A stretch of DNA of 64,000 bases, from positions 1 to 64,000 of the forward strand of contig DATKVV010000022.1 in assembly GCA_035529895.1 (NCBI GenBank). The letters run 5' to 3'. This document shows positions 91 through 14,779 of this stretch, one piece after another. The notes beneath the pieces were generated by a model, which did not search any database, was not told the DNA's origin, and worked only from the letters and a program-made list of their open reading frames with translations. The DNA comes from Sedimentisphaerales bacterium. Its GTDB lineage: Bacteria; Planctomycetota; Phycisphaerae; Sedimentisphaerales; Anaerobacaceae. The translations under genes and the position numbers were made by a program. Within the stretch, counting starts at the first letter, position 1. The number at the start of each line of letters is the position of its first letter.

Positions 91-888
91 TTGTGCCATA
101 ATTACGTTTCGTTGTTCCGGGTTATTCGGATAGGCTCTAAGCCGCATGCGGAGTTTTATAGGTGGCGCAGGAATGCCGATGGACGGGCGCCGTGGTGCAA
201 ACTTTGTATGCGCGCATACCGGCAGCATGAGCGGATGAGGAAAAAGGTATATGTTGAGGCGAGGCGCTGCAATACATGTAAAGAACTGAAGGGCCGCGAA
301 CACTTTTCAAAGGATATGCTCAACCGGGACGGATTGCGTAGGCAATGCAAGGCGTGTGCGTCACTAAGCCATCGTCGTTGGGCGGTTCGCCAGGCAGATA
401 ATGCTCCGACAGAAAAACAGTGTCGCAGGTGCGGTATAGTAAAGCCGCGAGAGCAATTTCGCCGCGACATGAGGCACGCCGATGGCCTGAGAAGTTATTG
501 CACAGAATGCAATCGCATACGCGGCGCCGCAGACTATGCGCTAGGGTCATTCCGCAAATCTGGCACGACTGGCGGGCCGTCCCTGGCGACGTGGGAACAG
601 GTCGGGCAGGCCGTAGAAGAAATAGCGGGATTACAGAAAATCATAAACCACGAGCGGAGCGCCTGTCTTAAAATCGTACAGGGCATCAAAACCGACCTGG
701 CGGCCAAGATAACCAAGCTGTTAATTCAACAGTCTCATCTCGAAAAGTTAATCGAGCGATTCATCAGAGGGACTCGCCGGAACGGGGAACGCATCGAGCG
801 AATATTTCCCTGTGGCAGAATAAGTTTTTATCGAGGCCGTTTGGAAATCGTCCCAAACCTTCCACATCTTCTTTATGTCGTGGGATAA
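91..888 (+). CDS. Basic multi-zinc-ribbon protein (cassette copy 1). It has at least 3 repeats of CxxC-x(5-6)-F-x-[KR]-D-x(5-7)-DGL-x(3)-CxxC, then a coiled-coil C-terminus. The start is uncertain: TTG at 91, and the N-terminus is shorter than in the paralog at 9215.
   Basis: ORF track. Repeated CxxC pairs are visible in the translation. It is 70-85% identical to the 9215..10045 product. It overlaps the downstream gene start by 14 nt, which suggests an operon. Confidence 0.5.
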   Translation: MCHNYVSLFRVIRIGSKPHAEFYRWRRNADGRAPWCKLCMRAYRQHERMRKKVYVEARRCNTCKELKGREHFSKDMLNRDGLRRQCKACASLSHRRWAVRQADNAPTEKQCRRCGIVKPREQFRRDMRHADGLRSYCTECNRIRGAADYALGSFRKSGTTGGPSLATWEQVGQAVEEIAGLQKIINHERSACLKIVQGIKTDLAAKITKLLIQQSHLEKLIERFIRGTRRNGERIERIFPCGRISFYRGRLEIVPNLPHLLYVVG

Positions 889-1690
889 AATGAGCACAGA
901 GGATATAAGCCGGAAGCAGCAGTTTTTCGACCAGCGGGCACGTAACGAGCGCCTTGCGCCGCCGCAGATTGTCCAGCCCGGCCACGTCGTCCGCCACCCT
1001 GTTTCCGGCAATGCAAAATTATTCGGGGTAATGTCGGCTGCCGACGGCGATGCTCTTTACACATGTCACGAACTCGTTATAGACGCAACAGCCTGGTCCG
1101 ACACTGGCGGCGATAAAAAACTTGTCGAGCTTAACGATACCGAGATTACCGTCCTTAATATCGCTGAATTTGACCCGGAACCTGAGTACGTCGCTCACCT
1201 GGCGTTCGGTGACGTGCTTGTCGGCGTATTTCGCGGAAAAGATGATGAGAACAATATCCGCTGGGCCGGTGTGCCGTTTCGCCGGCAGCATGGAGCGCAG
1301 GTTCGCCGGGCCTTCTGCAAGGCGGCAGCGGGTGACGCGGCCACGATTGATTGTTATCTCGATAAAGACGAGACGGGCACGGAGATTACCGTTAACTGCG
1401 ATATCATCGGCGGCTCGAAACTCAGTGAGGCTATCCCGTGCCTGGCTGATGGCACGCCGCTTGCGGTTTACAAGCTCGCGGACGGCAACTGGTACACTGA
1501 CACAGTATTTCAGACCTTCGATAAGGAAAAGGGCCTCGTAATCGAGTCCGGCAAGCTCGTAGTCAATATCGACGCGACGAAGGGTCTTGAATTTGATGAT
1601 GGTACCAAAAAACTGCAAGTACATATTAACGAGACTGAGCTGCGCTTCGACGGCGGTGAGCTTGAAACAAAAATTTCACCCTGTTCTTAA
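875..1690 (+). CDS. Tail-fibre-like structural protein (cassette copy 1).
   Basis: The C-terminal segment KLVVNIDATKGLEFDDGTKKLQVHINETELRFDGGELE resembles phage tail-fibre repeat motifs. It is about 85% identical to the paralog at 10046..10843. Genomic context is phage structural genes. Confidence 0.5.
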   Translation: MSWDKMSTEDISRKQQFFDQRARNERLAPPQIVQPGHVVRHPVSGNAKLFGVMSAADGDALYTCHELVIDATAWSDTGGDKKLVELNDTEITVLNIAEFDPEPEYVAHLAFGDVLVGVFRGKDDENNIRWAGVPFRRQHGAQVRRAFCKAAAGDAATIDCYLDKDETGTEITVNCDIIGGSKLSEAIPCLADGTPLAVYKLADGNWYTDTVFQTFDKEKGLVIESGKLVVNIDATKGLEFDDGTKKLQVHINETELRFDGGELETKISPCS

Positions 1691-1693
1691 TCT

Positions 1694-2452
1694 ATGGCGA
1701 ACGAAACGATTTACGGCTGTGTTGACTGGGCGACGGGCAAAATCAAGTTTGCACAGGACGCTTGTTATTACTACGGTTGTATAATATGGGAGGGCGTGCA
1801 TGCCGGGCAAGTCGCAGTTACTATTGATATGCCGAATTGCGACGATACTTATTATGGCTGCGTGAACTGGGCAACGGGCAAGTTTCAAGTTGTTGTGCCG
1901 GATAATTGCTGTGAATATCCTCCCTGTGAATATTGCGTGGATACGCCAAGCCAGGTAACTATCACATTTACCGGGTTAACCGAGTGCGAATGTCTGGTTG
2001 AGATGTATGGTTCTGCTAAATTTGTTGGTACAGCAGCCGCGATTAACGGCAATTCGTATGTATTGCCTGCCCGCCCGGATTTACCGTGTCTGTGGAAAAA
2101 GAAATTCACCGGTAATTTTGGTACTTGGAAATGTTATTATTTTACTGAATGTCAGACTTTCGACGACGAAGTGCCATTAACTTTCTTGGATATAGGTGTT
2201 AGGCGCTGCGTAGGCGAGGAGGGAGACGGTTTGCATATCGTGGCCAGGGTGGGAACCGGCTTCGACTTTTGCTGGGGTCCTTCCGTTGGACAAGTTGTAT
2301 ATTTCTATTCAACCAGCGAAGGTGGTTGTTTAGAAGCCGAGATTACAGGATGTGTCGGCGCTGTCGATTTGCCCAATCAAACAGGTTGTGATATTCCGGT
2401 AATTGGTGGCTACTTAATAAGTGGGACTGCTACGATTGTTGAAGGTGGTTGA
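1694..2452 (+). CDS. Cys-rich putative receptor-binding / fibre-tip protein (copy 1). The N-terminal roughly 85 aa are conserved and contain a YGCV[DN]WATGK internal repeat. The C-terminal half is unrelated to the paralog.
   Basis: ORF track. Alignment by eye to the 10850..11599 product shows about 75% identity over the first ~85 aa and none over the remainder. Confidence 0.5.
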   Translation: MANETIYGCVDWATGKIKFAQDACYYYGCIIWEGVHAGQVAVTIDMPNCDDTYYGCVNWATGKFQVVVPDNCCEYPPCEYCVDTPSQVTITFTGLTECECLVEMYGSAKFVGTAAAINGNSYVLPARPDLPCLWKKKFTGNFGTWKCYYFTECQTFDDEVPLTFLDIGVRRCVGEEGDGLHIVARVGTGFDFCWGPSVGQVVYFYSTSEGGCLEAEITGCVGAVDLPNQTGCDIPVIGGYLISGTATIVEGG

Positions 2453-2889
2453 TGTCTTGCAATCAAATTATTCCGCCCAAATTTACTGCCGAACAGACTA
2501 AGGAATGCTTGCACTGCAAAATGGCAAGCGCAAAGGTCCGTTGGTGCGGCCATTTCGGAGTATGGATTCAGGAACAAGGCAAAATTATAACACCACCGGA
2601 GAAAATCGCTTATCCTTCGATGCCCCGAATGGCGGCGAACTTTATGATAGCGGCAGGCAAACATATCGCATCGGGTTTCGCAAACAGAACGCCTGCCGAG
2701 CAGGAACAATGCCGGGTGATATGCGAGGCATGTCCCCACTATGTGCCGGATTCGAGATTAGGCCCGCGCTGCCGAAAATGTGGCTGTTGGGTTTCTCTTG
2801 CAAAACGCTGGGCAACAAAGCCTTGTCCTGAAGGCAAGTGGCCGGTTAACGCGGGTTTAACAGGTGTTGCAACTGTAGTTAAAACATAA
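2449..2889 (+). CDS. Small Cys-rich protein with CxxC, CEACP and CRKCGC motifs (copy 1). It may be a metal-binding fibre-assembly or accessory protein.
   Basis: ORF track. It is about 85% identical to the 11615..12061 product. It overlaps the upstream gene by 4 nt. Confidence 0.5.
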   Translation: MMSCNQIIPPKFTAEQTKECLHCKMASAKVRWCGHFGVWIQEQGKIITPPEKIAYPSMPRMAANFMIAAGKHIASGFANRTPAEQEQCRVICEACPHYVPDSRLGPRCRKCGCWVSLAKRWATKPCPEGKWPVNAGLTGVATVVKT

Positions 2890-2900
2890 GCAAAAGGCAG

Positions 2901-2988
2901 GTATCGCACATAACGCCGAGAGAAAATTGGGCGTTTTGGCTGCGATGTTTTTATGCGCTTCACCGATTCTGTTAAGATAGGCAGGATT
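2901..2988. repeat. Conserved ~88-bp non-coding box directly downstream of cassette copy 1. It contains a short hairpin aacgcc-N12-ggcgtt followed by a T-rich tract.
   Basis: Near-identical sequence (gtatcgcaca..ttaagataggcaggatt) is found at 12092..12180, downstream of cassette copy 2. Confidence 0.6.
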
Positions 2989-3030
2989 CGCCCCTTTTTT
3001 GTGTAATTACCCAACCCCCCTATCCTGTTA

Positions 3031-3100
3031 CCGCCATCTCGTGGGAATTTCCGCCAACATCCGCGCGAAACTACATGTAATCTCACACTAAAGATGGCGG
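3031..3100. repeat. 47-bp motif ccgccaTctcgtgGgaaTTtccgccaacatc...aactaca (single copy) plus its inverted partner agatggcgg. Candidate att, end or iteron site.
   Basis: Strong match to the two tandem 47-bp units at 12214..12310. An inverted repeat ccgccatct (3031-3039) / agatggcgg (3092-3100) is visible. Confidence 0.5.
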
Positions 3101-3621
3101 TGGGCGCGCACGTGCGGGAATACCTGAACATAGACGGCAAAAAGCGGGACGGCGCGCAGCAAACGCGGATTTTTGGGGGACGCGTGGTTAGATTATTAAA
3201 TTTTTTAATGATGGCATAAGTGGCAAAACAGCCAAAAATTCACAGCGAGTTGGCGGAGACTGAACTTTTAAGCGAGGCGCGTTTAAACCCGTTTAAAACA
3301 GCGCCAAATACCAGTTATAAGAAAATGCCCGGCTGGTTTTCTTGACAAAACGCGCGCACGTGGGCCTGCGCGCTTGCTCTTAGAAGTGCGCCTAACAATT
3401 AGGCTAATTAGATGAATAGTGAACAAAACTGGCGGTTTTGAGGCGATACGGCGGTTTTTGGGTGTGCGGGTGAAAACGATTGTGGAAGGATGTGTCGGTT
3501 TTCTTGACAAGGCAAAAAGTTACCCAAATTAACAAACGCTGGCGGGCGGCCAAAAAAATCTTTGAAAATGCAAAAATTTTTTTTCGGCGGGCCGCAAGCC
3601 CCCTGAGCCGTCAAAAAGACC

Positions 3622-3646
3622 AATCTGCAAACGAAGTTTGCAGATT
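3622..3646. promoter_or_regulatory. Perfect 11-bp-arm palindrome aatctgcaaac-gaa-gtttgcagatt. Candidate repressor or operator site in the element control region.
   Basis: Read directly from the sequence. It lies in a ~1-kb ORF-poor region upstream of the head gene block. Confidence 0.45.
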
Positions 3647-3770
3647 CAGGCGGAAGTGATAGGATAGCCGATGATGCAATGGGACGGGCGCTGCCCGGTA
3701 CCACGACGACAATATCATATATCACACAAGGCTATGACCAACGATGCGAAAATTTTTTGCGGGAAAAATA

Positions 3771-3799
3771 TTGACAGGCCGGGCCTGGCGGGGTACAAT
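3771..3799 (+). promoter_or_regulatory. Consensus sigma70 promoter TTGACA-17 nt-TACAAT.
   Basis: ttgaca (3771-3776), a 17-nt spacer, then tacaat (3794-3799). Both hexamers match consensus. Confidence 0.6.
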
Positions 3800-3805
3800 A
3801 CGGCA

Positions 3806-3937
3806 ATCATGGAACACAAAGCACAAAATCCGTTGACTCAAAATACTGTGCTGAACGAGCCTGGGGATTTTCGGAGTGGCAACGCCCGAACGGCTGCTTT
3901 GTGGCCGCATGAGTCCCCAGGCTCGTTCAGTCTTTTT
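3806..3937 (+). ncRNA. Candidate ~130-nt small RNA or leader/attenuator, running from the consensus promoter to a strong intrinsic terminator.
   Basis: The predicted TSS is about 7 nt after the -10. There is a 17-bp inverted repeat ctgaacgagcctgggga (3851-3867) / tccccaggctcgttcag (3914-3930), followed by tcttttt. No plausible ORF fits within it. A good SD (aaagggga) for the next gene follows at ~3957. Confidence 0.4.
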
Positions 3938-3969
3938 CTGCGCAGGCAGAAAATTGAAAGGGGACTAAC

Positions 3970-4317
3970 ATGAAACACAAAGATGGACAAACAGAAGGAT
4001 GCAACGGGCAGGGCAGGCGTGAACAGGTGCGGGGCGTGACCGCGCAGCTCGGCTCGCTCGCAGAACGGCTGCACGTGGAGTGCAGTGACAACAAACGGCT
4101 GGCGCTTGGCTGTATCACGGTCCTTATCGAGCTTGAGGACATATTGACCTCGGATGCCATTGACGGGCTGCGAGATGCGCAGCGATATTTACTGAACGAT
4201 GTTGAACGGGCCGAGAAAGCGGAAGCGTCACCGGACGATGAATCGCTCGAGCGCATACTGGGCACGGCAGAGGGAATCGCCGAGCAGCTTCAGGAAGCGG
4301 CGGGAATCACCTTATAA
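3970..4317 (+). CDS. Hypothetical acidic 115-aa protein, first gene of the head block.
   Basis: ORF track. Preceded by an SD. Immediately followed by the prohead protease, which has its own SD. Confidence 0.4.
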   Translation: MKHKDGQTEGCNGQGRREQVRGVTAQLGSLAERLHVECSDNKRLALGCITVLIELEDILTSDAIDGLRDAQRYLLNDVERAEKAEASPDDESLERILGTAEGIAEQLQEAAGITL

Positions 4318-4328
4318 GGAGATAGTCG

Positions 4329-5090
4329 ATGGACACGGATGTCGATTTTGCAGGGCTGGCTAAGGGGCAGCAATCACTTCTCGCAAAGACGGGGCCTGAC
4401 ACACGGACGTGCCAGGCCCTTGTCAAATCCATAGACAATACCCGAAAACGGATCACCGCAGTGGTCTCGGCGCCCGTTTTGGACAGGGACAACGAAATTA
4501 TAGAGGCTTCGGCGTTCGCCGAATCGCTGGCCGGTTTTATGAAAAACCCGGTTGTCCTGGCCTCTCACCAGCACAAATTATCCGACGGGCATTCCCCGGT
4601 TATAGCTAATGTCACCGCAGCAAAGACGACGCCGGGGGGCCTGGAGGTCGAGGTAGAATATCACGATGAAACCGAGCTTGCCCGCGAGTACTGGGGACTG
4701 TACTCGAAGAAGATTCAGCGGGCGTTCTCTGTGGGCTTCATACCGAAAGAGGGGGAATACAAAAACATAAAAGACTCGCGCGTGTGGTGTCACACAAAGG
4801 CGGAGCTTGTCGAGATATCGTGCGTGCCCGTGCCGTCGTGCCCGGAAGCGCTGTCGAGGTCCACACAAAAGAAGCTCGACTTCATAACTGCCAAGCGGAG
4901 CGAGCGGGAAGATGAGCAGTTCCTGGCGGAGCTGCGAAAAGAGGGCCTGGACCTGGATAAGCTGCGTGACGAGTTCGGGGACGTAATGCTGATGTCGGAC
5001 GATGACTGGGGCGTCGATGATTCGAAGGGGGCGGGCGGTGATGACGAATATGATTTTGTTGGCTTGGTTCGAGGTGTCGTAAGGCTATGA
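4329..5090 (+). CDS. Phage prohead (maturation) protease, HK97/S78-like.
   Basis: N-terminal motif ITAVVSAPVLDRDNEIIEASAF, then VLASHQH and ELVEISCVPVPSCPEA, which are typical of HK97-family prohead proteases. aaggag SD. It lies directly upstream of the capsid gene. Confidence 0.65.
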   Translation: MDTDVDFAGLAKGQQSLLAKTGPDTRTCQALVKSIDNTRKRITAVVSAPVLDRDNEIIEASAFAESLAGFMKNPVVLASHQHKLSDGHSPVIANVTAAKTTPGGLEVEVEYHDETELAREYWGLYSKKIQRAFSVGFIPKEGEYKNIKDSRVWCHTKAELVEISCVPVPSCPEALSRSTQKKLDFITAKRSEREDEQFLAELRKEGLDLDKLRDEFGDVMLMSDDDWGVDDSKGAGGDDEYDFVGLVRGVVRL

Positions 5091-5250
5091 GGATTCGCTT
5101 AGGAACAGATAATTGCCGGCGCTCCGCATGCTGCGATTATTTTGCTGGCGGGTCCGCTGCGGGTCATGGCTCAATCTCCAAAAGAGGGGGACGCGCAACC
5201 AGCGACGTCCCCCTGTTGTGCTGGGAGCTGGCAATCCGTGTTTATGAGGT

Positions 5251-6426
5251 ATGACAATGCCACTTATTGAAGAAAGAATCGCCGCAGGCTTCGAGGCCGC
5301 AGGCGAAAGAATGAATACGTTTGAGCAGAATCAAAAGGAGCTTCAAGAGAGCGTAAATATACTTACGAAGATGCTGCGTGAGTATGGCAGGGCGCTTAGC
5401 GCGGGCAATCCACCGTTCGACCAGGAAAGCAACCGGTTCTGGCGGACCGAAGAGGACGCAAGGCAGTTCGGTGAGCTGGTGCTCACGGCGATTGGCCGCA
5501 AGGCTATGGCCGAAGGTACGAACATCGGCGGCGGCGCGCTTGTCGATGCGACGCTGAGCGCCCAAGTGATTCAAAGACTCGGCAAATACGGCAAGCTGCG
5601 CGGCAACTGCACGGTTGTCCCCATAGGCTCGGCCGCGCAGCATTTTCCGAGGGTACAGTCTGACTTGACGGTATATTGTCCCGGCGAAGGGGGGACGATA
5701 AGCGAAAGCGACATGGGTTTTAACGTGGTCAAGATGATTCCGAAAACATTTGTCGCGCTGGCAGCCATATCGAACGAGCTTGACGACGATTCGATTGTCG
5801 GCTTGGGCGAGATTATCGGCATGTCGATGGCTCGGAGCATGGCAAAAAAAGAGGATGAAATCGGCTTTGTCGGGGACGGGACAGCGACTTTTTTCGGCAT
5901 GACCGGAATCTGCCAGGCCCTGCTTAACGTGGATGCCACAATTGCGAGCATTAAAGGCCTGGTAGTTGGCGCCGGGGATACGTATGCAGAGTTGACGCTC
6001 GGCGATTTTCGCAAGGTCGTGGGAATCCTGCCGGAGGATTGTGACGACACCGCCAAGTGGTACATGCACAAGCGATTTTATTATTCTGTCGTGTACCCGC
6101 TGGCGGAGACGGCGGGCGTCGCAAACATCTTTGAGATTTTAACAGACCGCAAGGGACGATTCCTTTTGGGCTACCCGGTCGAGTTCGTCCACTGTATGCC
6201 GTACACGGGAGCTGCTTCACAGATATGCGCGCTGCTCGGCGATTTACAGATGGGCTGTTATATCGCGGACCGCAAGATGCTGACTATCGAGCAGAGCAGC
6301 GAGGTCAAGTTCTTGACGAACCAAAAGGCAATCAGGGGCGTCGAGCGAATCGACATTAACGCCTTCGGCGTCGGAGATACGAGCGAGCCGGGGCCGATTG
6401 TCGGGCTGATAACTGCCGCTGCATAA
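5251..6426 (+). CDS. Major capsid protein, HK97 fold.
   Basis: 391 aa. It follows the prohead protease. The N-terminal delta-domain-like coiled segment and overall length are typical. Assigned from established gene order, not from a search. Confidence 0.6.
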   Translation: MTMPLIEERIAAGFEAAGERMNTFEQNQKELQESVNILTKMLREYGRALSAGNPPFDQESNRFWRTEEDARQFGELVLTAIGRKAMAEGTNIGGGALVDATLSAQVIQRLGKYGKLRGNCTVVPIGSAAQHFPRVQSDLTVYCPGEGGTISESDMGFNVVKMIPKTFVALAAISNELDDDSIVGLGEIIGMSMARSMAKKEDEIGFVGDGTATFFGMTGICQALLNVDATIASIKGLVVGAGDTYAELTLGDFRKVVGILPEDCDDTAKWYMHKRFYYSVVYPLAETAGVANIFEILTDRKGRFLLGYPVEFVHCMPYTGAASQICALLGDLQMGCYIADRKMLTIEQSSEVKFLTNQKAIRGVERIDINAFGVGDTSEPGPIVGLITAAA

Positions 6427-6510
6427 TGAGACAAGAGCGGGAGCGCGGGCGGCAAGCATCGCTTTGACCGCCCGCGTTCCCCGTGTTTACCAAAGTTAGG
6501 AGTATAAAAA

Positions 6511-6957
6511 ATGATTGAGATACAAGAGATGAAAATGATTATCGCCCTCAGGCCGCAGCTAAAGAACGCCGGGGCCTTCGCCAATAACGCATACTGGGAC
6601 CGTTCAAACTGGAACCACGAGCGGGTATTGTTCGTCGTGGGCGATACCGATGTTATTGTCGGTTCGACTGACACGAGTACTCCGCCGTTTGTCGAGGAGT
6701 GCGATACGGTCGGCGGCGGTTATACCGCCGTCACAGACGCTGCGCTTTCGGCGGTAATCGGGGCGCTCGACGATAACAAGCTGTTTGCTATCGACATCGA
6801 CCTGCGCAAGACGCATAAGCGGTATGGCCGGGTAAATGCGCCGACGGCGGGCGATTCAACAGGCGCAAATCTGGCTATCCTCGTGATTCTCAGCAAGGGC
6901 GAAATCGGGCCGAAGAACGCGGCGGGCCAGGGATTAGCCGAATTGGTGACGGCGTGA
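6511..6957 (+). CDS. Hypothetical 148-aa protein. It may be a head-decoration or head-tail connector protein.
   Basis: ORF track. aggag SD. Position between the capsid and the tape-measure-like gene. Confidence 0.35.
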   Translation: MIEIQEMKMIIALRPQLKNAGAFANNAYWDRSNWNHERVLFVVGDTDVIVGSTDTSTPPFVEECDTVGGGYTAVTDAALSAVIGALDDNKLFAIDIDLRKTHKRYGRVNAPTAGDSTGANLAILVILSKGEIGPKNAAGQGLAELVTA

Positions 6958-6975
6958 CACAGCGCGTAAAGTGAC

Positions 6976-8865
6976 ATGGCAAAAGACATTAACATACATC
7001 TAAAGACCACCGGGGCCGAGCAGACCAAAGAACAGCTCGACCAGACGGCGCGTTCTGCTGAGAAAATCGGCGAGTCCACACAGCAGGCGGGCAGACAGGC
7101 GGTCAAAGGCGCCGAGTGGGTCAAGAGCGCATTTAGCGCTATCGTCGGTCCTTTAGGTCTGGCGGCGCTTGCCGCCGCCGTCATTAACATCGTCCGCAAA
7201 ATACGCGCGGCGATTAACGACATGAAACAGGCTTCCTCAGAGGCCGTCAGCTCGCTGGCTGCGCTGCAGAAGGCGTCCGCCGATTACTTCGAGGCATTCG
7301 AGGCATATTCGCCCGAACAGAGGCAGGCGGCGCTTTTGCAGGCCCGGCAGTTTCAGGCAAAGACGGGACTGCCGATTGAGGCTTCACAAAAGCTGTTAGA
7401 GGCGTACAAGCGGACCTTCGGCAAATTGAATGAGGCGGCGGTCGAGCAGCTCGCGGGGTACTGGCAGTTGCACGGCCAGGAAGCGACGCTCGACCTGGTG
7501 CGATGGATGGGCGCCGAGCGAGTCACCACGCCGCAAAGACAGGGACAGATAACACGCATGGTCTCGGCGGTTGCCAGCGAGACCGGCCTCAGGGACGCGG
7601 AGATTATAAGCGCGCTGACGCGATACTCGACGGAGCTGCGCGGCCTGGGCTGGACGCCGGAAGAAACGATAATGAATATCGGCAAGGCCCTGGCGGGCAA
7701 ATCGCCGCTGGAGGCGCGCCGGGCGATGAGCTCGCTGGTGGACGGGATAAGGGCCTTCACCGAAGAAAAGGCGCTCGAGATGAAAGCGGCGGCGGAGATA
7801 GCTGCTTCAGAGAAAGAGCGGCTGGCCTGGGCGCGCCAGACAATGCTCAAGATGGAGCCGGAGGCGCGCCGCAAGTTCGCACGCCAGGCGTTCGGCGAAA
7901 CGGCTGCGCCGTATGTCACCGGGTGGCTTCTGGCTGAATATCCCGAAAAGACGCGGCGCGCGCTTGAGTACGCCCGCACACCGGATGCCGCCGAGCAGGA
8001 GCGCCAACGGGTCGAGGCCGTCAAACAAACAGCCGAAGCCGGGCGGGAAATAACCGAAGGCGGGGCCAAAAAATTGGAACTGCTCTTGGCCGAAGAAGAA
8101 AAACAGCGAGACGCGATACGGGAATACGGCAGGGTTTATCTTGAATATCTGCGCAGACGCGACCGGATACAATACGAGCTTATTAAAGCGCGTGCCGGGG
8201 ACAACGTGGAGCTGCAAAAAGAGGAGGCCGCCAAAGTATTGTTTGAGCTGAGCCGTCCGCCGCCAGCGCGTACGCGAAAAGAGCTTGCCAGCTTGGAATA
8301 CAGGCAAACCCGCGTAGAGCCGCCGGAGAAGATAGAATGGCAGGACATCCCGCTTGAAGAAAAAACAGAAGAACTGAAAAAGGCTATTAACAAGATTTAT
8401 GACCGGGAAGTGGAGAAAGAACGGCAGCGACGCGAGCAGCGGCAAAAGCAAAAAAAAGAGCCTGTCCTTGACCAGACCGCCGAAGAAGAGCCTTCACCGC
8501 CAACAGCAGCCGCCGAAACACGAGGCCCTAAGCGGATTACAAAAGAGCAGCCGCCAGCCGGAGAATTAGCGGGTCCGGAACTGCCGACCGAGACAGCGCC
8601 CACTCCGGCCAGGCGGGTAGCCGCCGAGATTCCGGAGCTGCCGACTGAGACAGCGCCCGCTCCGGCCAGGCGGGTAGCCGCCGAGATTCCGGAACCGGAG
8701 CTGCCGACTGAGACGGCGCCCGCTCTGGCCAGACAGGTAGCCGAAATTCCCGTCCTGGAGGCGCCGACGCACGTTGTGCACGTTACACATAACTATAACA
8801 ACAACCTACAATTTTTCCCTTCCGTCCATGAGGACGACAGGGGACCAAGGTTTGAGCAGGTATAA
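6976..8865 (+). CDS. Tape-measure-like or scaffold-like protein. It has a hydrophobic segment, long coiled-coil regions and a Pro/Glu-rich tandem-repeat C-terminus.
   Basis: The segment WVKSAFSAIVGPLGLAALAAAVINIV resembles tape-measure-protein N-terminal cores. Three 20-aa repeats PELPTETAP(T/A)PARRVAAEI are present. Confidence 0.4.
   Translation: MAKDINIHLKTTGAEQTKEQLDQTARSAEKIGESTQQAGRQAVKGAEWVKSAFSAIVGPLGLAALAAAVINIVRKIRAAINDMKQASSEAVSSLAALQKASADYFEAFEAYSPEQRQAALLQARQFQAKTGLPIEASQKLLEAYKRTFGKLNEAAVEQLAGYWQLHGQEATLDLVRWMGAERVTTPQRQGQITRMVSAVASETGLRDAEIISALTRYSTELRGLGWTPEETIMNIGKALAGKSPLEARRAMSSLVDGIRAFTEEKALEMKAAAEIAASEKERLAWARQTMLKMEPEARRKFARQAFGETAAPYVTGWLLAEYPEKTRRALEYARTPDAAEQERQRVEAVKQTAEAGREITEGGAKKLELLLAEEEKQRDAIREYGRVYLEYLRRRDRIQYELIKARAGDNVELQKEEAAKVLFELSRPPPARTRKELASLEYRQTRVEPPEKIEWQDIPLEEKTEELKKAINKIYDREVEKERQRREQRQKQKKEPVLDQTAEEEPSPPTAAAETRGPKRITKEQPPAGELAGPELPTETAPTPARRVAAEIPELPTETAPAPARRVAAEIPEPELPTETAPALARQVAEIPVLEAPTHVVHVTHNYNNNLQFFPSVHEDDRGPRFEQV
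8575..8755 (+). repeat. Three tandem ~60-bp in-frame repeats inside the 629-aa gene.
   Basis: ccggaactgccgaccgagacagcgcccactccggccaggcgggtagccgccgagatt recurs three times with point differences. Confidence 0.7.
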
Positions 8866-8881
8866 GAACAAAGGAGTCAAT

Positions 8882-9115
8882 ATGCAGATAGAGATAACGA
8901 ACGATTACAGAGGCCCGCTGGGGACATTCAAGCCGGGCGAGACATACGATTTTCCAAAGAAGGTGGTCCGGCGCCTTCCGACATCCTGTTATAAAGAAAT
9001 ACTTCCGCCTCAGGACGAAGGGCAAGTGCGGGTAATGGGCGGCAAAGAGACTTCCCCCAAGACTGATGTTGCGCGAGAGCCGACGTCTAATACGCCGAAA
9101 AAAACCGGACGCTAA
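8882..9115 (+). CDS. Hypothetical 78-aa protein, using the internal start MQIEITNDY.
   Basis: aaaggag SD, 7 nt before the ATG at 8882. The longer ORF from 8774 overlaps the upstream gene and lacks an SD. Confidence 0.35.
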   Translation: MQIEITNDYRGPLGTFKPGETYDFPKKVVRRLPTSCYKEILPPQDEGQVRVMGGKETSPKTDVAREPTSNTPKKTGR

Positions 9116-9214
9116 CTCAGTCAGCGGGTTGGTGATAGCACACGTGTTCGGGTCCGCGAGTCCCGAACGCGTGAAAATAATCAGGCTTATGCCTGCTGTT
9201 TATAGAGTGGTTAA

Positions 9215-10045
9215 ATGGGTTTTAACGAGATATTACAATCACATGGCGTAGTACCGAAGGTCGAGACGAAGGTCTGCGGCAAATGTCACCAGGCCAAGCC
9301 GCTCGAGGAGTTTTCTAAGAACGCAACACAATCACATGGCCGCGAAATCTACTGCAAACTCTGTAGGCGTGTATATCGACAACACCAAAAGGCCAGACAG
9401 AAGGTACATGTCAAAGAAAAGCGGTGCGGTAAATGCAGGGAAGTGAAGGGCCGCGAGCGCTTTTCAAAAGACGCGAGTACGCGAGACGGATTGCGCAGTC
9501 AATGCAAAGAGTGTGCGTCATTAAGTCACCGTCATTGGGCGGCTCACCAGGCAGTTAACGCGCCGACAGAAAAACGGTGTCGCAAATGCGGCATAGTAAA
9601 GCCGCGAGAGGAATTTCACCGGGACCCGAAACACCTCGACGGGCTGCGAAGTTATTGCATACAATGCAGGCGGTTGTTAAGTGCTGCGGATTACGCATTA
9701 CGGTCATCCAGGCAGTTCGCCGTAGCCGCCGGTCCGTCCCTGGGGACGTGGGAACAGGTCGAGCAGGCCGTAAAACAAATATCGGAATTACAGAAAATCA
9801 TAAACCACGAGCGGAGCGCCTGTCTTAAAATCGTACAGAGCGTCAAAACCGACCTGGCGGCCAAAGTAACGCGACTTCTTCTACGGCAAGTGGACCTTGA
9901 AGGACTAATCGAGCGATTCATAAAGAAGAACCGTCGAAACGGGGACCGTATCGAGCGGGTCTGTGCGCACGGGAGAATATCCTTTTTTAAGGGTCGTCTG
10001 GATGTTATACCAAACTTACCGACCCGTCTTGTTGTGGAGAGATAA
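9215..10045 (+). CDS. Basic multi-zinc-ribbon protein (cassette copy 2). It has 4 CxxC-pair repeats and a coiled-coil C-terminus.
   Basis: ORF track. Paralog of 91..888, with some stretches 100% identical at the DNA level (for example aaaatcataaaccacgagcggagcgcctgtcttaaaatcgtacag). Confidence 0.55.
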   Translation: MGFNEILQSHGVVPKVETKVCGKCHQAKPLEEFSKNATQSHGREIYCKLCRRVYRQHQKARQKVHVKEKRCGKCREVKGRERFSKDASTRDGLRSQCKECASLSHRHWAAHQAVNAPTEKRCRKCGIVKPREEFHRDPKHLDGLRSYCIQCRRLLSAADYALRSSRQFAVAAGPSLGTWEQVEQAVKQISELQKIINHERSACLKIVQSVKTDLAAKVTRLLLRQVDLEGLIERFIKKNRRNGDRIERVCAHGRISFFKGRLDVIPNLPTRLVVER

Positions 10046-10843
10046 ATGGGCAGTAAGGACATAGGCCGGAAGCAGGAGTTTTTCAACGAGCGTGCCCGCA
10101 ACGAGCGCCTTGTCGGTCCCGAAATAATCCAGCCCGGCAGGGCGGTCCGCTATCCCACTTCCGGCAACACGAAGCTGTTCGGGGTGGTAACTACCGCTGA
10201 GGGGGATGGTCTTTACATCTGCCATGAATTGGTCATAGATGCGGCGGCCTGGTCCGATACCGAAGGCGCGGTCAAATTTGTCCAGCTTAATGATACCGAG
10301 GTCACCGTCTTTAATATCGCCGAATTTGACCCTGAGTCCGAGTATGTCGCCCCGCTTGCCTTCGGCGATGTCCTGGTGGGCGTTTTTCACGGCAAAGACA
10401 ACGCGAATAATATCCGCTGGGCTGGCCTGCCTTTCCGGCGCCAGCATGGAGCGCAGATTCGGCGGGCCTTCTGCAAGGCGGCGGCCGGGGCGGCGGCAAC
10501 GATTGTCTGCTATCTCGATAAAGACGGCAGCGGCTTCGAAATTACCGTCAACTGCGACATCGTCGGCGGCTCGAAACTCAGCGAGGCTATCCCGTGTCTG
10601 GCGATTGGTACGCCGCTTGAAGTTTACAAATTGGCGGATGGTAATTGGTACACGCCTACTAAATTCCAGACCTTTGACAAAGAAAAGGGCCTGGTCATCG
10701 AGTCCGGTAAGCTCATCGTCAACATCGACGATACCAAGGGCCTTGAATTTGACGCGGGCGACCATAAACTTGCGGTGAATATCAATACTACGGAATTGCA
10801 GTTCGATAGCGGCGAAATTGAAACTAAACTTGACGCCTGTTGA
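10046..10843 (+). CDS. Tail-fibre-like structural protein (cassette copy 2).
   Basis: Paralog of 875..1690. The start abuts the upstream stop. Confidence 0.5.
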   Translation: MGSKDIGRKQEFFNERARNERLVGPEIIQPGRAVRYPTSGNTKLFGVVTTAEGDGLYICHELVIDAAAWSDTEGAVKFVQLNDTEVTVFNIAEFDPESEYVAPLAFGDVLVGVFHGKDNANNIRWAGLPFRRQHGAQIRRAFCKAAAGAAATIVCYLDKDGSGFEITVNCDIVGGSKLSEAIPCLAIGTPLEVYKLADGNWYTPTKFQTFDKEKGLVIESGKLIVNIDDTKGLEFDAGDHKLAVNINTTELQFDSGEIETKLDAC

Positions 10844-10849
10844 TAGATT

Positions 10850-11599
10850 ATGGCAAACGAAACGATTTACGGCTGTGTTGAATGGGCAACGGGCAAGGTC
10901 AAATTCACACAGGATAATTGTATTTACCGGGGCTGCATAGTCCGGGGCGGGGTTCACGACGGCCAAGTGGCCGTTACTATCAATACTCCAAATTGCAATG
11001 ATACTTATTACGGCTGCGTGAACTGGGGAACGGGCAAATTCGAAGTAAGTGTGCCGGATAATTGCTGTGCAACGACTGATTGTGAATGGTGCGAAGGCGC
11101 TCCGCCGGGGTGGATAGATGTAACTTTTACGGGCCTTAGCGATTATGGCTGCGATTGTTATTACGATGTTTATGGTTATCACAGTTATAAATCTGTTGGA
11201 ATTGATATGTATAATGGCACTTGGCGCGTTCCATATTACGGGGAATGCGCTTATCACAGATTTTCTTGGGACCCAGACCCATTACCCGTATGTTCAGAAT
11301 GTCAGGAATGGTGGACCAACCAGGACTGTTCCGGTATCTATGGCTTCAAACAACATATAAATCCATCTCTGTCGGTTTATTTAATCGAAAGTGGTGTTTA
11401 TATTCAGATGCATTCGTCGAATATAGGAGTAGCAATCTTTCAGGGCACAATAAATTATACCGGGGATGATTCTTGCGGTGATACAGAAAACTCCTGCAAT
11501 AACACCTATACTTTGCCGGGTGAGTGTTGGCAATACCCGCCCGACCCCTATGTACGTACTTTTTGCACTACTGGCAGCGCAACCGTGAGCATAGCATAA
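10850..11599 (+). CDS. Cys-rich putative receptor-binding protein (copy 2) with a divergent C-terminal half.
   Basis: Shares the N-terminal MANETIYGCVEWATGK..YYGCVNWGTGKF with copy 1. The C-terminal ~165 aa are unrelated. Confidence 0.5.
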   Translation: MANETIYGCVEWATGKVKFTQDNCIYRGCIVRGGVHDGQVAVTINTPNCNDTYYGCVNWGTGKFEVSVPDNCCATTDCEWCEGAPPGWIDVTFTGLSDYGCDCYYDVYGYHSYKSVGIDMYNGTWRVPYYGECAYHRFSWDPDPLPVCSECQEWWTNQDCSGIYGFKQHINPSLSVYLIESGVYIQMHSSNIGVAIFQGTINYTGDDSCGDTENSCNNTYTLPGECWQYPPDPYVRTFCTTGSATVSIA

Positions 11600-11614
11600 A
11601 TTTAATACTCATAA

Positions 11615-12061
11615 TTGATAATTATGATATGTAATCAAATCATCCCGCCCCAATTTACGGCGGAACAGATTAAAGAATGTTCTTGCTGTAAAATGGCCAG
11701 CGCGAGGGTTCGCTGGTGCGGACATTTCGGGGTGTGGATTCAGGAGCAAGGCAAAATCATAACGCCGCCCGAGAACATCGTTTATCCTTCGATGCTCCGA
11801 ATGGCGGGTAGTTTTGCTATGGCGGCGGCCAGGCATGTCGCGTCGGGTTTTCGGAATAGAACACCTGCCGAGCAGGCACAGTGCCGGGCGATATGCGAGG
11901 CGTGTCCCTATTACGTGCGGGATTCGAAATTAGGCCCGCGATGCCGCAAGTGCGGCTGCTGCGTGTCCCTTGCCAGACGGTGGGCAACCAAGCGATGTCC
12001 TGAAGGCAAATGGCCGATTAACGCGGGTTTAACGAGCGTTGCAACTGCGGTTAAAGCATAG
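11615..12061 (+). CDS. Small Cys-rich protein (copy 2).
   Basis: Paralog of 2449..2889. Confidence 0.5.
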   Translation: MIIMICNQIIPPQFTAEQIKECSCCKMASARVRWCGHFGVWIQEQGKIITPPENIVYPSMLRMAGSFAMAAARHVASGFRNRTPAEQAQCRAICEACPYYVRDSKLGPRCRKCGCCVSLARRWATKRCPEGKWPINAGLTSVATAVKA

Positions 12062-12091
12062 ATACAAAGTGGTAAAATGTAGGTAGTCGCA

Positions 12092-12180
12092 CACAACGCC
12101 GAGAGAAAAAGAGGCGTTTTGGCTGCGATGTTTTTATGCGCTCCACTGATTCTGTTAAGATAGGCAGGATTTTCGGCCTC
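12092..12180. repeat. Conserved ~88-bp non-coding box, copy 2.
   Basis: Matches 2901..2988. Confidence 0.6.
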
Positions 12181-12213
12181 ATCAGACAATTACCTATTTT
12201 GCCCAAATCCCAT

Positions 12214-12310
12214 CCGCCAACTCGTGTGAAAATCCGCCAACATCACTGTAAACCTACACCCGTCCGCCAACTCGTGTGAAAATCCGCCAACATCACTGTG
12301 AAACTACACC
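12214..12310. repeat. Two tandem 47-bp units (period 50 bp): ccgccaactcgtgtgaaaatccgccaacatcactgt(g)aaa(c)ctacacc.
   Basis: The tandem duplication is directly visible. Each unit contains two ccgccaa half-sites and matches the single unit at 3031..3077. Confidence 0.65.
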
Positions 12311-12421
12311 TACACTACAGGGAGTTATGTGTTGTAAAAAAATTGAAGATTTTTTTGGATTTTTGTTGCACCGTCGTGCATATTGTGTCATATTGTAACA
12401 TATTGATGAGGATGTTACATT

Positions 12422-13090: not shown

Positions 13091-13155
13091 TCCGTCGGAC
13101 CGTTTAAGAGACGAAAAGCAATGTAAGTTTGCAAACGTAAGGAAAGGAAGAAGAG

Positions 13156-13395
13156 ATGATTGGTGCTACATGCGCAAACACAGCAGGAGGGCTTGTAATT
13201 GTGCTGGTGGGCTTCGCGGCCTACGTATTCATAATTGCACTGGTTATTATCTGCCTGATCCGGGCCTCGAGATACTTTATGACAGCAGGCAAGGAACAAA
13301 AGCTGACGCGAATAGAACTGGGCAAGCTTGCTGAAGAGGTTCATCAATTGCGTCAGGATCTGAAAGGCGGCAGGGAAGATGATTCTTGCTCCTAA
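13156..13395 (+). CDS. Small membrane protein (79 aa): one TM helix followed by a charged amphipathic helix.
   Basis: Strong SD aaggaaagga. Paralog of the next ORF. Confidence 0.45.
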   Translation: MIGATCANTAGGLVIVLVGFAAYVFIIALVIICLIRASRYFMTAGKEQKLTRIELGKLAEEVHQLRQDLKGGREDDSCS

Positions 13396-13447
13396 CCAGT
13401 AGAGTGCTGTCAGAAAGAAATCAGCCCACAAAGAAAGGGGGCAGAAA

Positions 13448-14554: not shown

Positions 14555-14779
14555 TGGCAGATTATAGCCGGGGTGAAGAGAAGTGAAAAACAAAAAGGGC
14601 CTGGAGAGGCGACGGGTATGAAATTGGGTTTGATCCGGCTTCGCCAGCCCGGCTTCGTATGGGACTTCGCCGTGGCAAGCAGGCTCCGCCGCGATAAATT
14701 GGGTTTGTTTGGGTTTGTTTTCCCGGCACGTTTTTGGCGGTTTCATTTTCATAACCCTCTGTCACATAGACGGTTAGGT

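What the first reader, a model, noticed from the sequence alone, without database searches (positions are those of the whole stretch)
3771..3937. Textbook sigma70 promoter followed after ~130 nt by a 17-bp-stem intrinsic terminator: candidate element-encoded sRNA or antitermination-controlled leader
TTGACA-17-TACAAT at 3771..3799 is a perfect consensus. A 17-bp perfect inverted repeat followed by TCTTTTT at 3851..3937 would terminate most transcripts just before the SD of the first head-block gene (3970). No ORF fits inside. Two explanations fit: an abundant small RNA encoded in the control region of the element, or a Q-like or processive-antitermination switch controlling head-gene expression.
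Basis: seen in the sequence. Interest (0 to 1): 0.55.

Follow-up and report, generated by a model that had tools for sequence, protein, structure and literature searches.

The report
c4-type immunity RNA before capsid genes
The "promoter plus long hairpin" is the gene for a small regulatory RNA built like the c4 immunity RNA of phage P1; one of its loops matches the start of the capsid-gene operon of a mobile element in a planctomycete, so it most likely keeps those genes switched off.

Summary
TTGACA-17-TACAAT lies at 3771-3799, and a 17-nt perfect inverted repeat (3851-3867 / 3914-3930) is followed by a U-run.

The "hairpin" is not a plain terminator. It is a three-helix RNA:
- P1: a 21-bp closing stem.
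- P2: a hairpin with a GNRA tetraloop.
- P3: a 4-bp stem with a 9-nt loop.

The RNA occurs in 9 distinct related elements, and 24 of its 32 base pairs covary. Its layout matches phage P1 c4 RNA. Rfam's c4-2 model is the only sub-threshold hit (31-36 bits against a cut-off of 41).

In all nine elements the P3 loop (b') is complementary to two sites. One lies at the 5' end of the transcript. The other covers codons 3-5 of the first gene of the protease/capsid operon. The junction triplet (a') is CAU where the start codon is ATG and CAC where it is GTG. Loop and targets change together, even between otherwise identical elements.

Best reading: a c4/CI-type antisense "immunity" RNA that blocks translation initiation of the capsid operon. 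A Q-like antitermination switch is not supported.

One unexpected feature: an ORF starting at the upstream target site runs open through the RNA in 9/9 elements, and also in P1.

It is a new variant of a known kind.

The parts
3771..3799 (+). Sigma-70-type promoter: -35 TTGACA 3771-3776, 17-nt spacer, -10 TACAAT 3794-3799. The predicted transcription start is about 3806.
   Evidence: 11 of 12 consensus positions. The -35/-10 pair is conserved at the same distance from the upstream site in all 9 loci.
3807..3823 (+). Upstream target site (a1/b1-like) at the 5' end of the transcript. UCAUG 3807-3811 (a1) includes ATG 3809-3811; GAA follows; CACAAAGCA 3815-3823 (b1) is the exact complement of the P3 loop.
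   Evidence: The b':b1 helix is 87.7% paired over 9 loci, 8 of 9 pairs change on both sides, and 0 of 500 shuffles reach the covariation score.
3809..3973 (+). Near-leaderless 54-codon ORF that starts at the upstream site and reads through the whole RNA. Its stop, TGA 3971-3973, overlaps ATG 3970 (ATGA).
   Evidence: The frame has 0 stops in 9 of 9 loci, against a mean of 2.3 stops in the other frames. The peptide sequence is not conserved.
3850..3931 (+). c4-type structured RNA: P1 3850-3870 pairs with 3911-3931 (21 bp); P2 3871-3889, with GNRA loop GCAA 3879-3882; P3 stem 3891-3894 pairs with 3904-3907.
   Evidence: 94.4% of cells paired; 24 of 32 pairs covary. Sub-threshold Rfam c4-2 hit at 3857-3926, 30.8 bits.
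3895..3903 (+). b' : the 9-nt P3 loop UGCUUUGUG, the antisense specificity determinant.
   Evidence: P1 c4 has its b' in the same place.
3908..3912 (+). a' : the single-stranded junction J3/1, CAU(GA), complementary to the start codon and its 5' neighbour.
   Evidence: The triplet is CAU in the 5 loci with ATG and CAC in the 4 loci with GTG, at both target sites. P1 c4 has its a' (CUGUCAA) at the same junction.
3932..3938 (+). U-rich tract directly after P1 (CUUUUUC). Together with P1 it forms a terminator-like 3' end.
   Evidence: It is conserved in 7 of 9 loci and absent in L009 and L026.
3937..3950 (+). Small conserved hairpin UCUGC-GCAG-GCAGA between the RNA and the Shine-Dalgarno sequence.
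   Evidence: It is present in all 9 loci with compensatory changes, for example UGUGC..GCACA in L013. This was read; no formal pair count was made.
3957..3964 (+). Shine-Dalgarno-like AAAGGGGA of ORF1.
   Evidence: Read from the sequence.
3969..3982 (+). Downstream target site (a2/b2-like). CAUG 3969-3972 includes the ORF1 start ATG 3970-3972; AAA follows; CACAAAG 3976-3982 covers codons 3-5.
   Evidence: The b':b2 helix is 79% paired and 7 of 9 pairs change on both sides.
3970..4317 (+). ORF1 (115 aa): function unknown, poorly conserved, no database match. It is the first gene of the regulated operon.
4329..6426 (+). Downstream operon genes: S78 prohead protease (4329-5090) and HK97-type major capsid protein (5251-6426).

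Best explanation
Region 3771-3982 encodes a c4/CI-type antisense 'immunity' RNA together with its two target sites. All of these lie on one transcript, at the head of the capsid operon of an integrated mobile element in a Sedimentisphaerales (Planctomycetota) genome.

Shown here:
- A conserved sigma-70 promoter.
- A roughly 82-nt three-helix RNA (P1, P2 with a GNRA loop, P3 with a 9-nt loop), supported by covariation.
- The P3 loop (b') and the junction triplet (a') are complementary to a site at the 5' end of the transcript.
- They are also complementary to the start codon plus codons 3-5 of ORF1.
- These three elements co-vary in nine independent relatives.

Inferred:
- The RNA is released from the leader, either by termination at the P1/U-run or by processing, as for P1 c4.
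- It base-pairs with the ORF1 initiation region, in trans and possibly in cis, and blocks 30S binding.
- Through loss of translation (coupling or polarity), it keeps ORF1, the protease and the capsid genes silent while the element is resident.
- The loop/target sequence acts as a specificity code that distinguishes self from related co-resident elements, as in P1/P7 heteroimmunity.
- The upstream copy of the site is a second target or competitor, as with a1/b1 in P1 and seqA in P4.
For: Structure:
- 9 distinct loci carry the RNA. 94.4% of cells are paired, and 24 of 32 pairs change on both sides. No shuffle reaches these values (0 of 500), and the slide controls are 3- to 10-fold lower.
- RNAalifold on an independent MAFFT alignment recovers P1, P2 and P3.
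- Strand: the + strand scores 95-108 bits against 27-33 bits for the - strand.

Same topology as P1 c4. P1 c4 folds as a 17-bp P1, a P2 with a UUCG loop, and a P3 with a 9-nt loop that holds b'. Its J3/1 junction CUGUCAA is a'. Annotated a1/b1 sites lie upstream and a2/b2 sites downstream, in front of icd.

Rfam: c4-2 is the only hit. It scores 30.8 bits (E = 2.4e-4) in the window and 35.8 bits in L012.

Antisense pairing:
- Cognate contiguous complementarity is 7-9 nt upstream and 6-9 nt downstream, at fixed positions next to RTG-RRA. Non-cognate pairs mostly give 4-6 nt, with one chance 8.
- RNAduplex gives -17.0 kcal/mol for cognate pairs and -8.5 +/- 2.8 for non-cognate pairs. One of 100,000 permutations is as good.
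- Pair counts: the upstream interaction (a'/b' with a1/b1) is 90.7% paired, and the downstream one (with a2/b2) 84.3%. Their covariation scores are 0.82 and 0.68, against 0.20 for shuffles.

Specificity swapping: the window and L005 are about 100% identical from about 3990 onward and 93% identical in the promoter. They are only 47-73% identical across the RNA and its sites.

Literature: c4 is processed from a longer transcript, and its a' and b' loops occlude the ribosome binding site (PMC5320573). P4 CI RNA pairs with seqA upstream and seqC downstream (PMC4825925, PMC3632133).
Against: - No expression, processing or repression data exist. The organism is an uncultured metagenome-assembled genome.
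- Rfam scores stay below the gathering cut-off. My own model R2 aligns to the c4 genes of P7, SJ46, D6 and ECO95 (P1-type c4 genes) at only 8-11 bits. Homology with c4, as opposed to convergence, is therefore not shown.
- The regulated genes are not icd/ant, and ORF1 has no known function.
- The a' segment is short (3-6 nt), and its covariation amounts to one event between two clades.
- Both targets are on the same molecule as the RNA, so purely cis action is not excluded.
- The RNA is absent from many loci with related capsid genes.
Confidence: 0.72

Rival explanations
1. It is a cis-acting leader switch only. The P3 loop pairs within the same molecule, either with the 5' site (ORF1 start free, operon ON) or with the ORF1 start (OFF). 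Alternatively, the P1 stem plus U-run is an attenuator whose formation is prevented by ribosomes translating the leaderless ORF 3809-3973. No diffusible RNA would be needed.
For: - Both complementary sites lie on the same transcript as the loop.
- A U-rich tract follows P1 in 7 of 9 loci.
- The ORF from the 5' site is open through the RNA in 9 of 9 loci. It ends in an ATGA/GTGA overlap, runs 44-47 nt past the ORF1 start, or is in frame with ORF1.
- The -10 hexamer lies 6-9 nt from that start codon, giving a leaderless or near-leaderless mRNA.
Against: - A purely cis device has no need to diversify. Here the loop and both sites are replaced together between otherwise identical elements, and all nine specificities differ. 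That is what trans discrimination predicts.
- The layout is that of c4, which is known to act in trans (PMC5320573).
- The U-tract is missing in 2 of 9 loci.
Confidence: 0.17
2. It is a plain intrinsic terminator or insulator at the end of an upstream unit, plus an unrelated promoter. The internal hairpins would be incidental.
For: A GC-rich 17-21 bp stem is followed by UCUUUUU in the window.
Against: - The insert between the arms is conserved, and P2 and P3 covary.
- The loop matches two flanking sites in 9 of 9 loci.
- The promoter directly upstream is conserved with the RNA as one unit.
- The U-tract is lost in L009 and L026.
Confidence: 0.03
3. The conserved feature is a small protein (54 aa, 3809-3973), or three copies of a DNA operator half-site (b1, b', b2) bound by an element-specific repressor. 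In this reading it is not an RNA-RNA interaction.
For: - The frame is open in all loci.
- Third-position bias is seen in the window/L007 pair, with 7 synonymous against 7 non-synonymous single-difference codons.
- b1 and b2 are direct repeats and b' is their inverse.
Against: - The peptide is not conserved. L009/L012 show 0 synonymous against 12 non-synonymous changes, and the stem arms change amino acids freely while keeping base pairs.
- G-U pairs in P1, and in the L026 b':b1 helix, fit only the + strand RNA.
- b' sits exactly in the apical loop of a covarying hairpin, and a' sits in its junction, as in c4.
Confidence: 0.05
4. It is a Q-like or put-like processive antitermination element that modifies RNA polymerase so that it reads into the head genes.
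For: Only its position: it lies between a strong promoter and the structural genes.
Against: - No Rfam match other than c4-2.
- No Q-family hit among the 10 neighbouring ORFs scanned.
- This model gives no reason for the loop to be complementary to the start of ORF1 and to a 5' copy of it.
Confidence: 0.02

Closest known systems
c4 antisense RNA of phages P1/P7 (immI operon; Rfam C4 RF01695, clan CL00128)
   Same: - The layout is promoter, then upstream target copy (a1/b1), then the structured RNA, then the downstream target (a2/b2) at the translation start region of the next gene.
- The RNA has a long P1, a P2 hairpin capped by a stable tetraloop, and a P3 with a 9-nt loop that is b'. The single-stranded J3/1 junction is a'.
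- Specificity differs between relatives through co-variation of a'/b' and the targets. I saw this for P1, P7, D6, SJ46 and ECO95.
- An ORF runs from the upstream site through the RNA.
   Different: - The host phylum is Planctomycetota, not Proteobacteria.
- No significant sequence or covariance-model similarity to P1-type c4 genes (8-11 bits against P7, SJ46, D6 and ECO95).
- a is only 3-6 nt long and is the start codon itself. b covers codons 3-5 rather than the Shine-Dalgarno sequence, and the a-b spacing is 3 nt.
- P2 has a GNRA loop, not UUCG.
- A U-run follows P1 in most members.
- The downstream genes are ORF1, protease and capsid, not icd/ant.
- RNase P processing is unknown, and there is no CCA-like 3' tail.
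c4-2 RNA motif (Rfam RF02944; Weinberg et al. 2017, PMC5737381)
   Same: It is the only Rfam model that matches. The match is full length (model positions 1-79) and has the same helices: a GNRA-capped P2, a P3 with a 4-bp stem and 9-nt loop, and a purine-rich J3/1.
   Different: Scores of 30.8 and 35.8 bits are below the 41-bit gathering cut-off. Seven of the nine members give no hit at all. P1 here is a continuous 21 bp, without the internal loop of the c4-2 consensus.
CI RNA / seqA-seqC immunity of satellite phage P4 (and the IsrK-C4 pair of P4-like and lambdoid prophages)
   Same: An RNA taken from the leader of the element's own operon pairs with complementary sequences upstream and downstream of itself to shut off downstream genes. 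It serves as the immunity factor of a small mobile element (PMC4825925 discussion; PMC3632133).
   Different: P4 acts through premature transcription termination. Its upstream partner (seqA/IsrK-like) is itself a structured RNA. Neither point was tested here. No sequence similarity was found.
IsrK of the Gifsy-1 prophage (dual small/messenger RNA; PMC4825925)
   Same: - An sRNA with its own terminator, where read-through yields the mRNA.
- An upstream ORF whose stop overlaps the next start (AUGA). Its nucleotide sequence, but not its peptide, is conserved, and it couples translation downstream.
   Different: IsrK activates translation by remodelling the long isoform. Its upstream ORF lies downstream of the sRNA, not across it. 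Here the pairing covers the start codon, which predicts repression.

Membership tests
c4 antisense RNA clan (Rfam CL00128: C4, c4-2) | Score at or above the Rfam gathering cut-off for a clan member. | tested here: not met
   c4-2 scores 30.8 bits in the window and 35.8 bits in L012, against a cut-off of 41. There was no hit in gathering mode, and none for the other 7 members.
c4 antisense RNA clan (Rfam CL00128: C4, c4-2) | Three-helix fold: a long closing stem P1, a P2 hairpin with a stable tetraloop, a P3 hairpin with a loop of about 9 nt, and a single-stranded J3/1 junction. | tested here: met
   for the window family. One search gives the fold of P1 c4 for comparison.
c4 antisense RNA clan (Rfam CL00128: C4, c4-2) | b' (P3 loop) and a' (J3/1) are complementary to a2/b2 in the translation initiation region of the next gene on the same transcript. 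| tested here: met
   The sites cover the start codon and codons 3-5, rather than the Shine-Dalgarno sequence as in P1.
c4 antisense RNA clan (Rfam CL00128: C4, c4-2) | A second copy of the target (a1/b1) lies upstream of the RNA. | tested here: met
   It lies at the extreme 5' end of the predicted transcript.
c4 antisense RNA clan (Rfam CL00128: C4, c4-2) | Relatives differ in specificity through co-variation of a'/b' with the targets (P1/P7 heteroimmunity). | tested here: met
   There are nine different loop/target sets. The cassette is swapped between near-identical elements. The same pattern is seen in P1-like phages.
c4 antisense RNA clan (Rfam CL00128: C4, c4-2) | The mature RNA of about 77 nt is cut from a precursor by RNase P. 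| not testable with these tools
   No transcript data are available. No CCA-like tail follows P1. The paper by Hartmann et al. 1995 is not in the library.
c4 antisense RNA clan (Rfam CL00128: C4, c4-2) | It represses translation of the downstream ORF and, by polarity, transcription of distal genes. | not testable with these tools
   This is inferred only from pairing over the start codon.
P1 immI operon | The regulated genes are icd and the antirepressor ant. | tested here: not met
   ORF1 has no Pfam or PHROG hit and only one near-identical homologue. The next genes are the S78 protease and the HK97 capsid protein.
Intrinsic (Rho-independent) terminator | A GC-rich stem immediately followed by a U-tract, conserved among homologues. 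| tested here: inconclusive
   It is present in the window. A U-rich tract is found in 7 of 9 loci and is absent in L009 and L026.
Q / put-type processive antitermination | A Q-like protein gene or a put-like RNA next to the late promoter. | tested here: not met
   No such Rfam match. No antiterminator family among the neighbouring ORFs.
IsrK-type dual small/messenger RNA | Terminator read-through produces the mRNA, and an upstream ORF is translationally coupled (AUGA) to the next gene. | tested here: inconclusive
   An ATGA/GTGA overlap between the leader ORF and ORF1 occurs in 4 of 9 loci. In the others the leader ORF is in frame with ORF1 or overlaps it. Read-through and coupling were not measured.

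The most novel reading that the evidence does not exclude
The leader may be a translated, leaderless ORF that contains the regulatory RNA, forming a self-reinforcing two-state switch.

- OFF state: free RNA pairs with the 5' site (a1/b1, which is the leader ORF start) and with the ORF1 start. The leader stays untranslated, P1 plus the U-run folds, and more RNA is released.
- ON state: ribosomes start at the 5'-terminal AUG/GUG and unwind the RNA. This stops both termination and production of the regulator. The ribosomes are then delivered to the overlapping ORF1 start.

P1, P7, D6, SJ46 and ECO95 also keep an open frame from b1 through c4 (the historical 'c4 CDS'). This could therefore be an overlooked general property of c4/CI-type immunity systems, and it could explain the unexplained a1/b1 (seqA) sites.
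Probability: 0.28. Interest if true: 0.72.

Novelty: new variant of a known kind. Interest (0 to 1): 0.5.

Why it matters
RNA-based immunity of the c4/CI type has so far been described for enterobacterial phages, satellites and Proteobacteria (PMC2864571, PMC3632133, PMC5320573). Four things follow from finding it here.

- **Wider distribution.** The same layout and logic occur in Planctomycetota, in a small element that carries capsid genes. The mechanism is therefore either far more widespread or recurrently invented.
- **A detection gap.** Current Rfam thresholds miss it.
- **A ready experiment.** The family offers a natural set of nine orthogonal loop/target codes, including a cassette swap between otherwise identical elements. 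This is material for testing how RNA immunity specificities evolve.
- **Practical annotation.** The pairing over the start codon marks which start codon and which operon are under control in an uncultured organism.

The open frame through the RNA, shared with P1, raises a testable question about the role of the upstream target copy.

Tried and rejected
- BLASTN of 3300-4400 against 50,697 phage records found no match.
- The capsid protein alone against viral contigs found no relatives. The genome-contig scan gave 4 distant loci, and only L001 carries the RNA.
- The core pattern CCCGRACGGC-N(8-10)-GCCGCATGAG in viral contigs gave one chance hit inside a coding region (L011).
- A longer pattern in metagenome contigs gave only 3 loci. 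Two were already known; L018 is a partial chance match at 23 bits.
- Model R2, built from 9 sequences, found no further members in 76 loci with capsid relatives. Some, such as L020, have tightly packed genes and no leader at that position.
- R2 against P1-like c4 genes gave nothing with filters on (which included P1 itself). With filters off, against P7, D6, SJ46 and ECO95, it gave 8-11 bits, co-located with c4. This is suggestive of shared architecture, not evidence of homology.
- ORF1 has only one near-identical homologue and no Pfam or PHROG family in eight family members. Its function remains unknown.
- Coding selection on the leader peptide gave inconsistent results, so I rejected a conserved small protein.
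- No tRNA or tmRNA is present.
- I tried to see an upstream tandem copy of the element, but all contigs end at window position 1.
- Hartmann et al. 1995 and the supplement of Weinberg et al. 2017 are not in the library.
- No conserved 5' hairpin presenting b1 was found.

Full report
**1. The observation.**
The sequence contains TTGACA (3771-3776), a 17-nt spacer and TACAAT (3794-3799), which is 11 of 12 consensus positions. CTGAACGAGCCTGGGGA at 3851-3867 has its exact reverse complement at 3914-3930 and is followed by TCTTTTTCT. As RNA, 3806-3940 folds at -59.7 kcal/mol with z = -6.7.

The fold is not a simple hairpin.
- P1: a 21-bp closing stem, 3850-3870 paired with 3911-3931.
- P2: a hairpin at 3871-3889, capped by the GNRA tetraloop GCAA.
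- P3: a 4-bp stem (3891-3894 / 3904-3907) with the 9-nt loop UGCUUUGUG.
- A single-stranded junction, CAU (3908-3910).

There is no tRNA or tmRNA, and no Rfam family reaches its gathering score. In E-value mode the only relevant hit is c4-2 (RF02944, c4 antisense clan). It is a full-length match at 3857-3926, scoring 30.8 bits against a cut-off of 41, with E = 2.4e-4.

**2. Context.**
- ORF1 at 3970-4317 (115 aa) has no family match.
- It is followed by an S78 prohead protease (4329-5090) and an HK97-type major capsid protein (5251-6426).
- Next come a 148-aa protein and a 629-aa protein; homologues of the latter hit PhageMin_Tail.
- Then comes a four-gene cassette that includes a zinc-finger/Gam-like protein, and after it an HTH_17+Clp_N protein.
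- The host gene prmC lies at 13676-14752 on the minus strand.

The capsid protein is 100% identical to one annotated from a Sedimentisphaerales metagenome-assembled genome. In relatives, the same island lies between a host phosphoribosyltransferase gene and prmC.

**3. Conservation.**
I fetched loci through capsid-protein homologues and built a covariance model from three sequences. The model finds the RNA just upstream of the first gene of the protease/capsid block in nine distinct loci: the window, L007, L005, L009, L012, L013, L021, L001 and L026.

- 94.4% of cells are paired.
- 24 of 32 pairs change on both sides.
- No shuffle (0 of 500) reaches the observed values, and sliding the partners drops pairing to 33-43%.
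- RNAalifold on an independent MAFFT alignment recovers the same three helices.
- The + strand scores about 70 bits higher than the - strand, and G-U pairs agree with that orientation.

The promoter is conserved in all nine loci. A small hairpin (3937-3950) between the RNA and the Shine-Dalgarno sequence is also conserved, with compensatory changes. The U-run after P1 is present in 7 of 9 loci and absent in L009 and L026. Termination is therefore not the invariant feature.

**4. The key result: a loop that matches two sites.**
In every locus the P3 loop is the reverse complement of two sequences.
- One follows a start-codon-like RTG-RRA at the 5' end of the transcript. In the window this is CACAAAGCA at 3815-3823.
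- The other follows the real start codon of ORF1. In the window this is CACAAAG at 3976-3982, covering codons 3-5.

Cognate contiguous complementarity is 7-9 nt upstream and 6-9 nt downstream, always in the same register. Non-cognate combinations mostly give 4-6 nt. Duplex energies are -17.0 kcal/mol for cognate pairs and -8.5 +/- 2.8 for non-cognate pairs. Only one of 100,000 permutations of RNAs among loci does as well.

Formal pair counts on alignment A4:

| Interaction | Whole interaction paired | b helix alone paired | b helix pairs changing on both sides | Covariation score (shuffles 0.20; slides at most 0.19) |
|---|---|---|---|---|
| Upstream (a'/b' with a1/b1) | 90.7% | 87.7% | 8 of 9 | 0.82 |
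| Downstream (a'/b' with a2/b2) | 84.3% | 79% | 7 of 9 | 0.68 |

The junction triplet is CAU in the five loci whose start codons are ATG. It is CAC in the four loci whose start codons are GTG, at both sites. Extended, CAUGA pairs with UCAUG and CACA with UGUG.

The window and L005 are about 100% identical from about 3990 onward and 93% identical in the promoter. They are only 47-73% identical across 3804-3953. The RNA and its sites have been exchanged as a cassette, and the N-terminal codons of ORF1 changed with them.

**5. Comparison with P1.**
The annotated P1 genome gives these coordinates:
- promoters P2c4 and P1c4
- a1: 48255-48261
- b1: 48269-48276
- c4: 48343-48419
- a2: 48423-48429
- b2: 48452-48459
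- icd start: 48470

P1 c4 folds into a 17-bp P1, a P2 with a UUCG loop, and a P3 with the 9-nt loop UUCACUAAC, which contains b'. Its J3/1 junction CUGUCAA is a'. This is the topology found here: b' in the P3 loop, a' in J3/1, and targets in the order 5'-a-b-3' both upstream and downstream of the RNA.

P1-like phages show the same style of loop/target co-variation. The literature describes c4 as processed from a longer transcript, with a' and b' binding the mRNA and b' occluding the ribosome binding site (PMC5320573). P4 CI RNA pairs with seqA upstream and seqC downstream (PMC4825925), and P1, P7, N15 and P4 share this system (PMC3632133). c4-2 is described as a likely distant homologue of c4 (PMC5737381).

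Differences here:
- The a segment is short and is the start codon itself.
- b lies in codons 3-5 rather than over the Shine-Dalgarno sequence.
- P2 has a GNRA loop.
- A U-run follows P1 in most members.
- The downstream genes are ORF1, protease and capsid rather than icd/ant.
- The host phylum differs.

My model R2 aligns to the c4 genes of P7, D6, SJ46 and ECO95 only weakly (8-11 bits, filters off). Common descent is therefore not demonstrated.

**6. Mechanism.**
Shown: the promoter, the fold, the complementarity and the three-way co-variation.

Inferred:
- The RNA is liberated by termination at P1/U-run or by processing.
- It pairs through a' and b' with the ORF1 start region, which lies within the ribosome footprint, and prevents initiation.
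- Lack of translation silences the operon.
- The variable loop/target code gives element-specific immunity.

I put 0.72 on this reading, 0.17 on a purely cis switch or attenuator, and small values on the remaining rivals.

**7. An unexpected feature.**
The frame that starts at the upstream site (ATG 3809) contains no stop codon up to the ORF1 start in 9 of 9 loci. The other two frames carry 0-4 stops each, with a mean of 2.3.

How the leader ORF ends:
- In four loci, including the window (TGA 3971-3973), it ends in an ATGA/GTGA overlap with the ORF1 start.
- In two loci it ends 44-47 nt past the ORF1 start.
- In three loci it is in frame with ORF1.

The chance of an open frame is 0.09-0.32 per sequence under dinucleotide shuffling. 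For five or six effectively independent lineages, that is roughly 1e-3 to 1e-5; this is my rough estimate. The peptide itself is not conserved. The -10 hexamer lies 9 nt (ATG clade) or 6-7 nt (GTG clade) before that codon, so the mRNA would be leaderless or nearly so.

There is a caveat. An upstream site that must mimic a2 will look like a start codon in any case. P1 has the same property. ATG 48267 overlaps b1 and opens a 66-codon frame through c4 that stops 3 nt before icd. This is the historical 'c4 CDS' of record X15639. An open stretch through c4 is also present in P7, D6, SJ46 and ECO95. This supports the more novel reading, that translation of the leader competes with formation of the regulator, but it does not prove it.

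**8. Verdict.**
- The 'small RNA' interpretation is right and can be sharpened to a c4/CI-type immunity RNA with its two targets.
- The antitermination interpretation is not supported.
- It is a new variant of a known kind, of moderate interest.

Noticed in passing
window 91-2889 and 9215-12061: A four-gene cassette is present twice, about 9.16 kb apart, at 73-80% nucleotide identity. It holds a Lar/EndoVII-type zinc-finger plus Mu Gam-like protein, a 265-271 aa protein, a Cys-rich 249-252 aa protein, and a 146-148 aa phrog_13558 protein. This suggests tandem element copies. All public contigs end at window position 1, so the upstream copy cannot be seen.
   Followed up: partly
window about 2890-13400; L009 3460-12420; L015: The island encodes a prohead protease, an HK97 capsid protein, a PhageMin_Tail-like protein, a Gam-like protein and an AlpA/HTH protein. 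None of the scanned or called genes matched a portal, terminase, tail or integrase family. It sits between the same host genes (phosphoribosyltransferase and prmC) in genomes whose capsid proteins are only 68% identical. One relative (L015) carries MuA/MuB-like transposase genes. It could be a satellite-like or domesticated capsid element.
   Followed up: partly
window 12214-12291, 3051-3058, 3249-3256; L007 3754-3922: A clustered short motif, CCGCCAAC (GTTGGCGG), occurs four times at the right end of the element. It also occurs once in each orientation in the 1-kb non-coding left region. There are 12 copies in the window against 3.6 expected. L007 has TGGCCAAAAA three times in the equivalent region. 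These are possible binding sites for a transposase, recombinase or repressor.
   Followed up: partly
window 3440-3515; L007 4100-4175: A conserved non-coding block lies about 300 nt upstream of the RNA promoter. It includes 'cggttttcTTGACAag'. It may be a second promoter or an operator.
   Followed up: no
L086 (phage P1 AF234172) 48267-48467; L087-L090: In P1, an ORF starts at an ATG that overlaps the b1 site. It runs through the whole c4 RNA and stops 3 nt before icd. An open stretch through c4 is kept in P7, D6, SJ46 and ECO95 despite indels. The planctomycete family has the same feature.
   Followed up: partly
window 3804-3953 compared with L005 168-317: There is a sharp mosaic boundary. 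The flanks are 93-100% identical, but the RNA and its target cassette are only 47-73% identical. This indicates recombinational exchange of the specificity module among co-occurring elements from the same sampling project.
   Followed up: yes
window 21510-21876 and 16277-16610: Tandem direct repeats with a period of about 144 nt (three copies, 86-90% identical) and of about 135-138 nt (three copies, 80-85% identical) lie in the chromosomal part of the window. The second set lies inside the 562-aa ORF 15277-16965, which has no Pfam hit.
   Followed up: no
window 14780-15262 (- strand): A 160-aa ORF matches only the C-terminal end of a DDE_Tnp_1_4 transposase (profile positions 367-428 of 435). 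It is a transposase remnant next to prmC.
   Followed up: no
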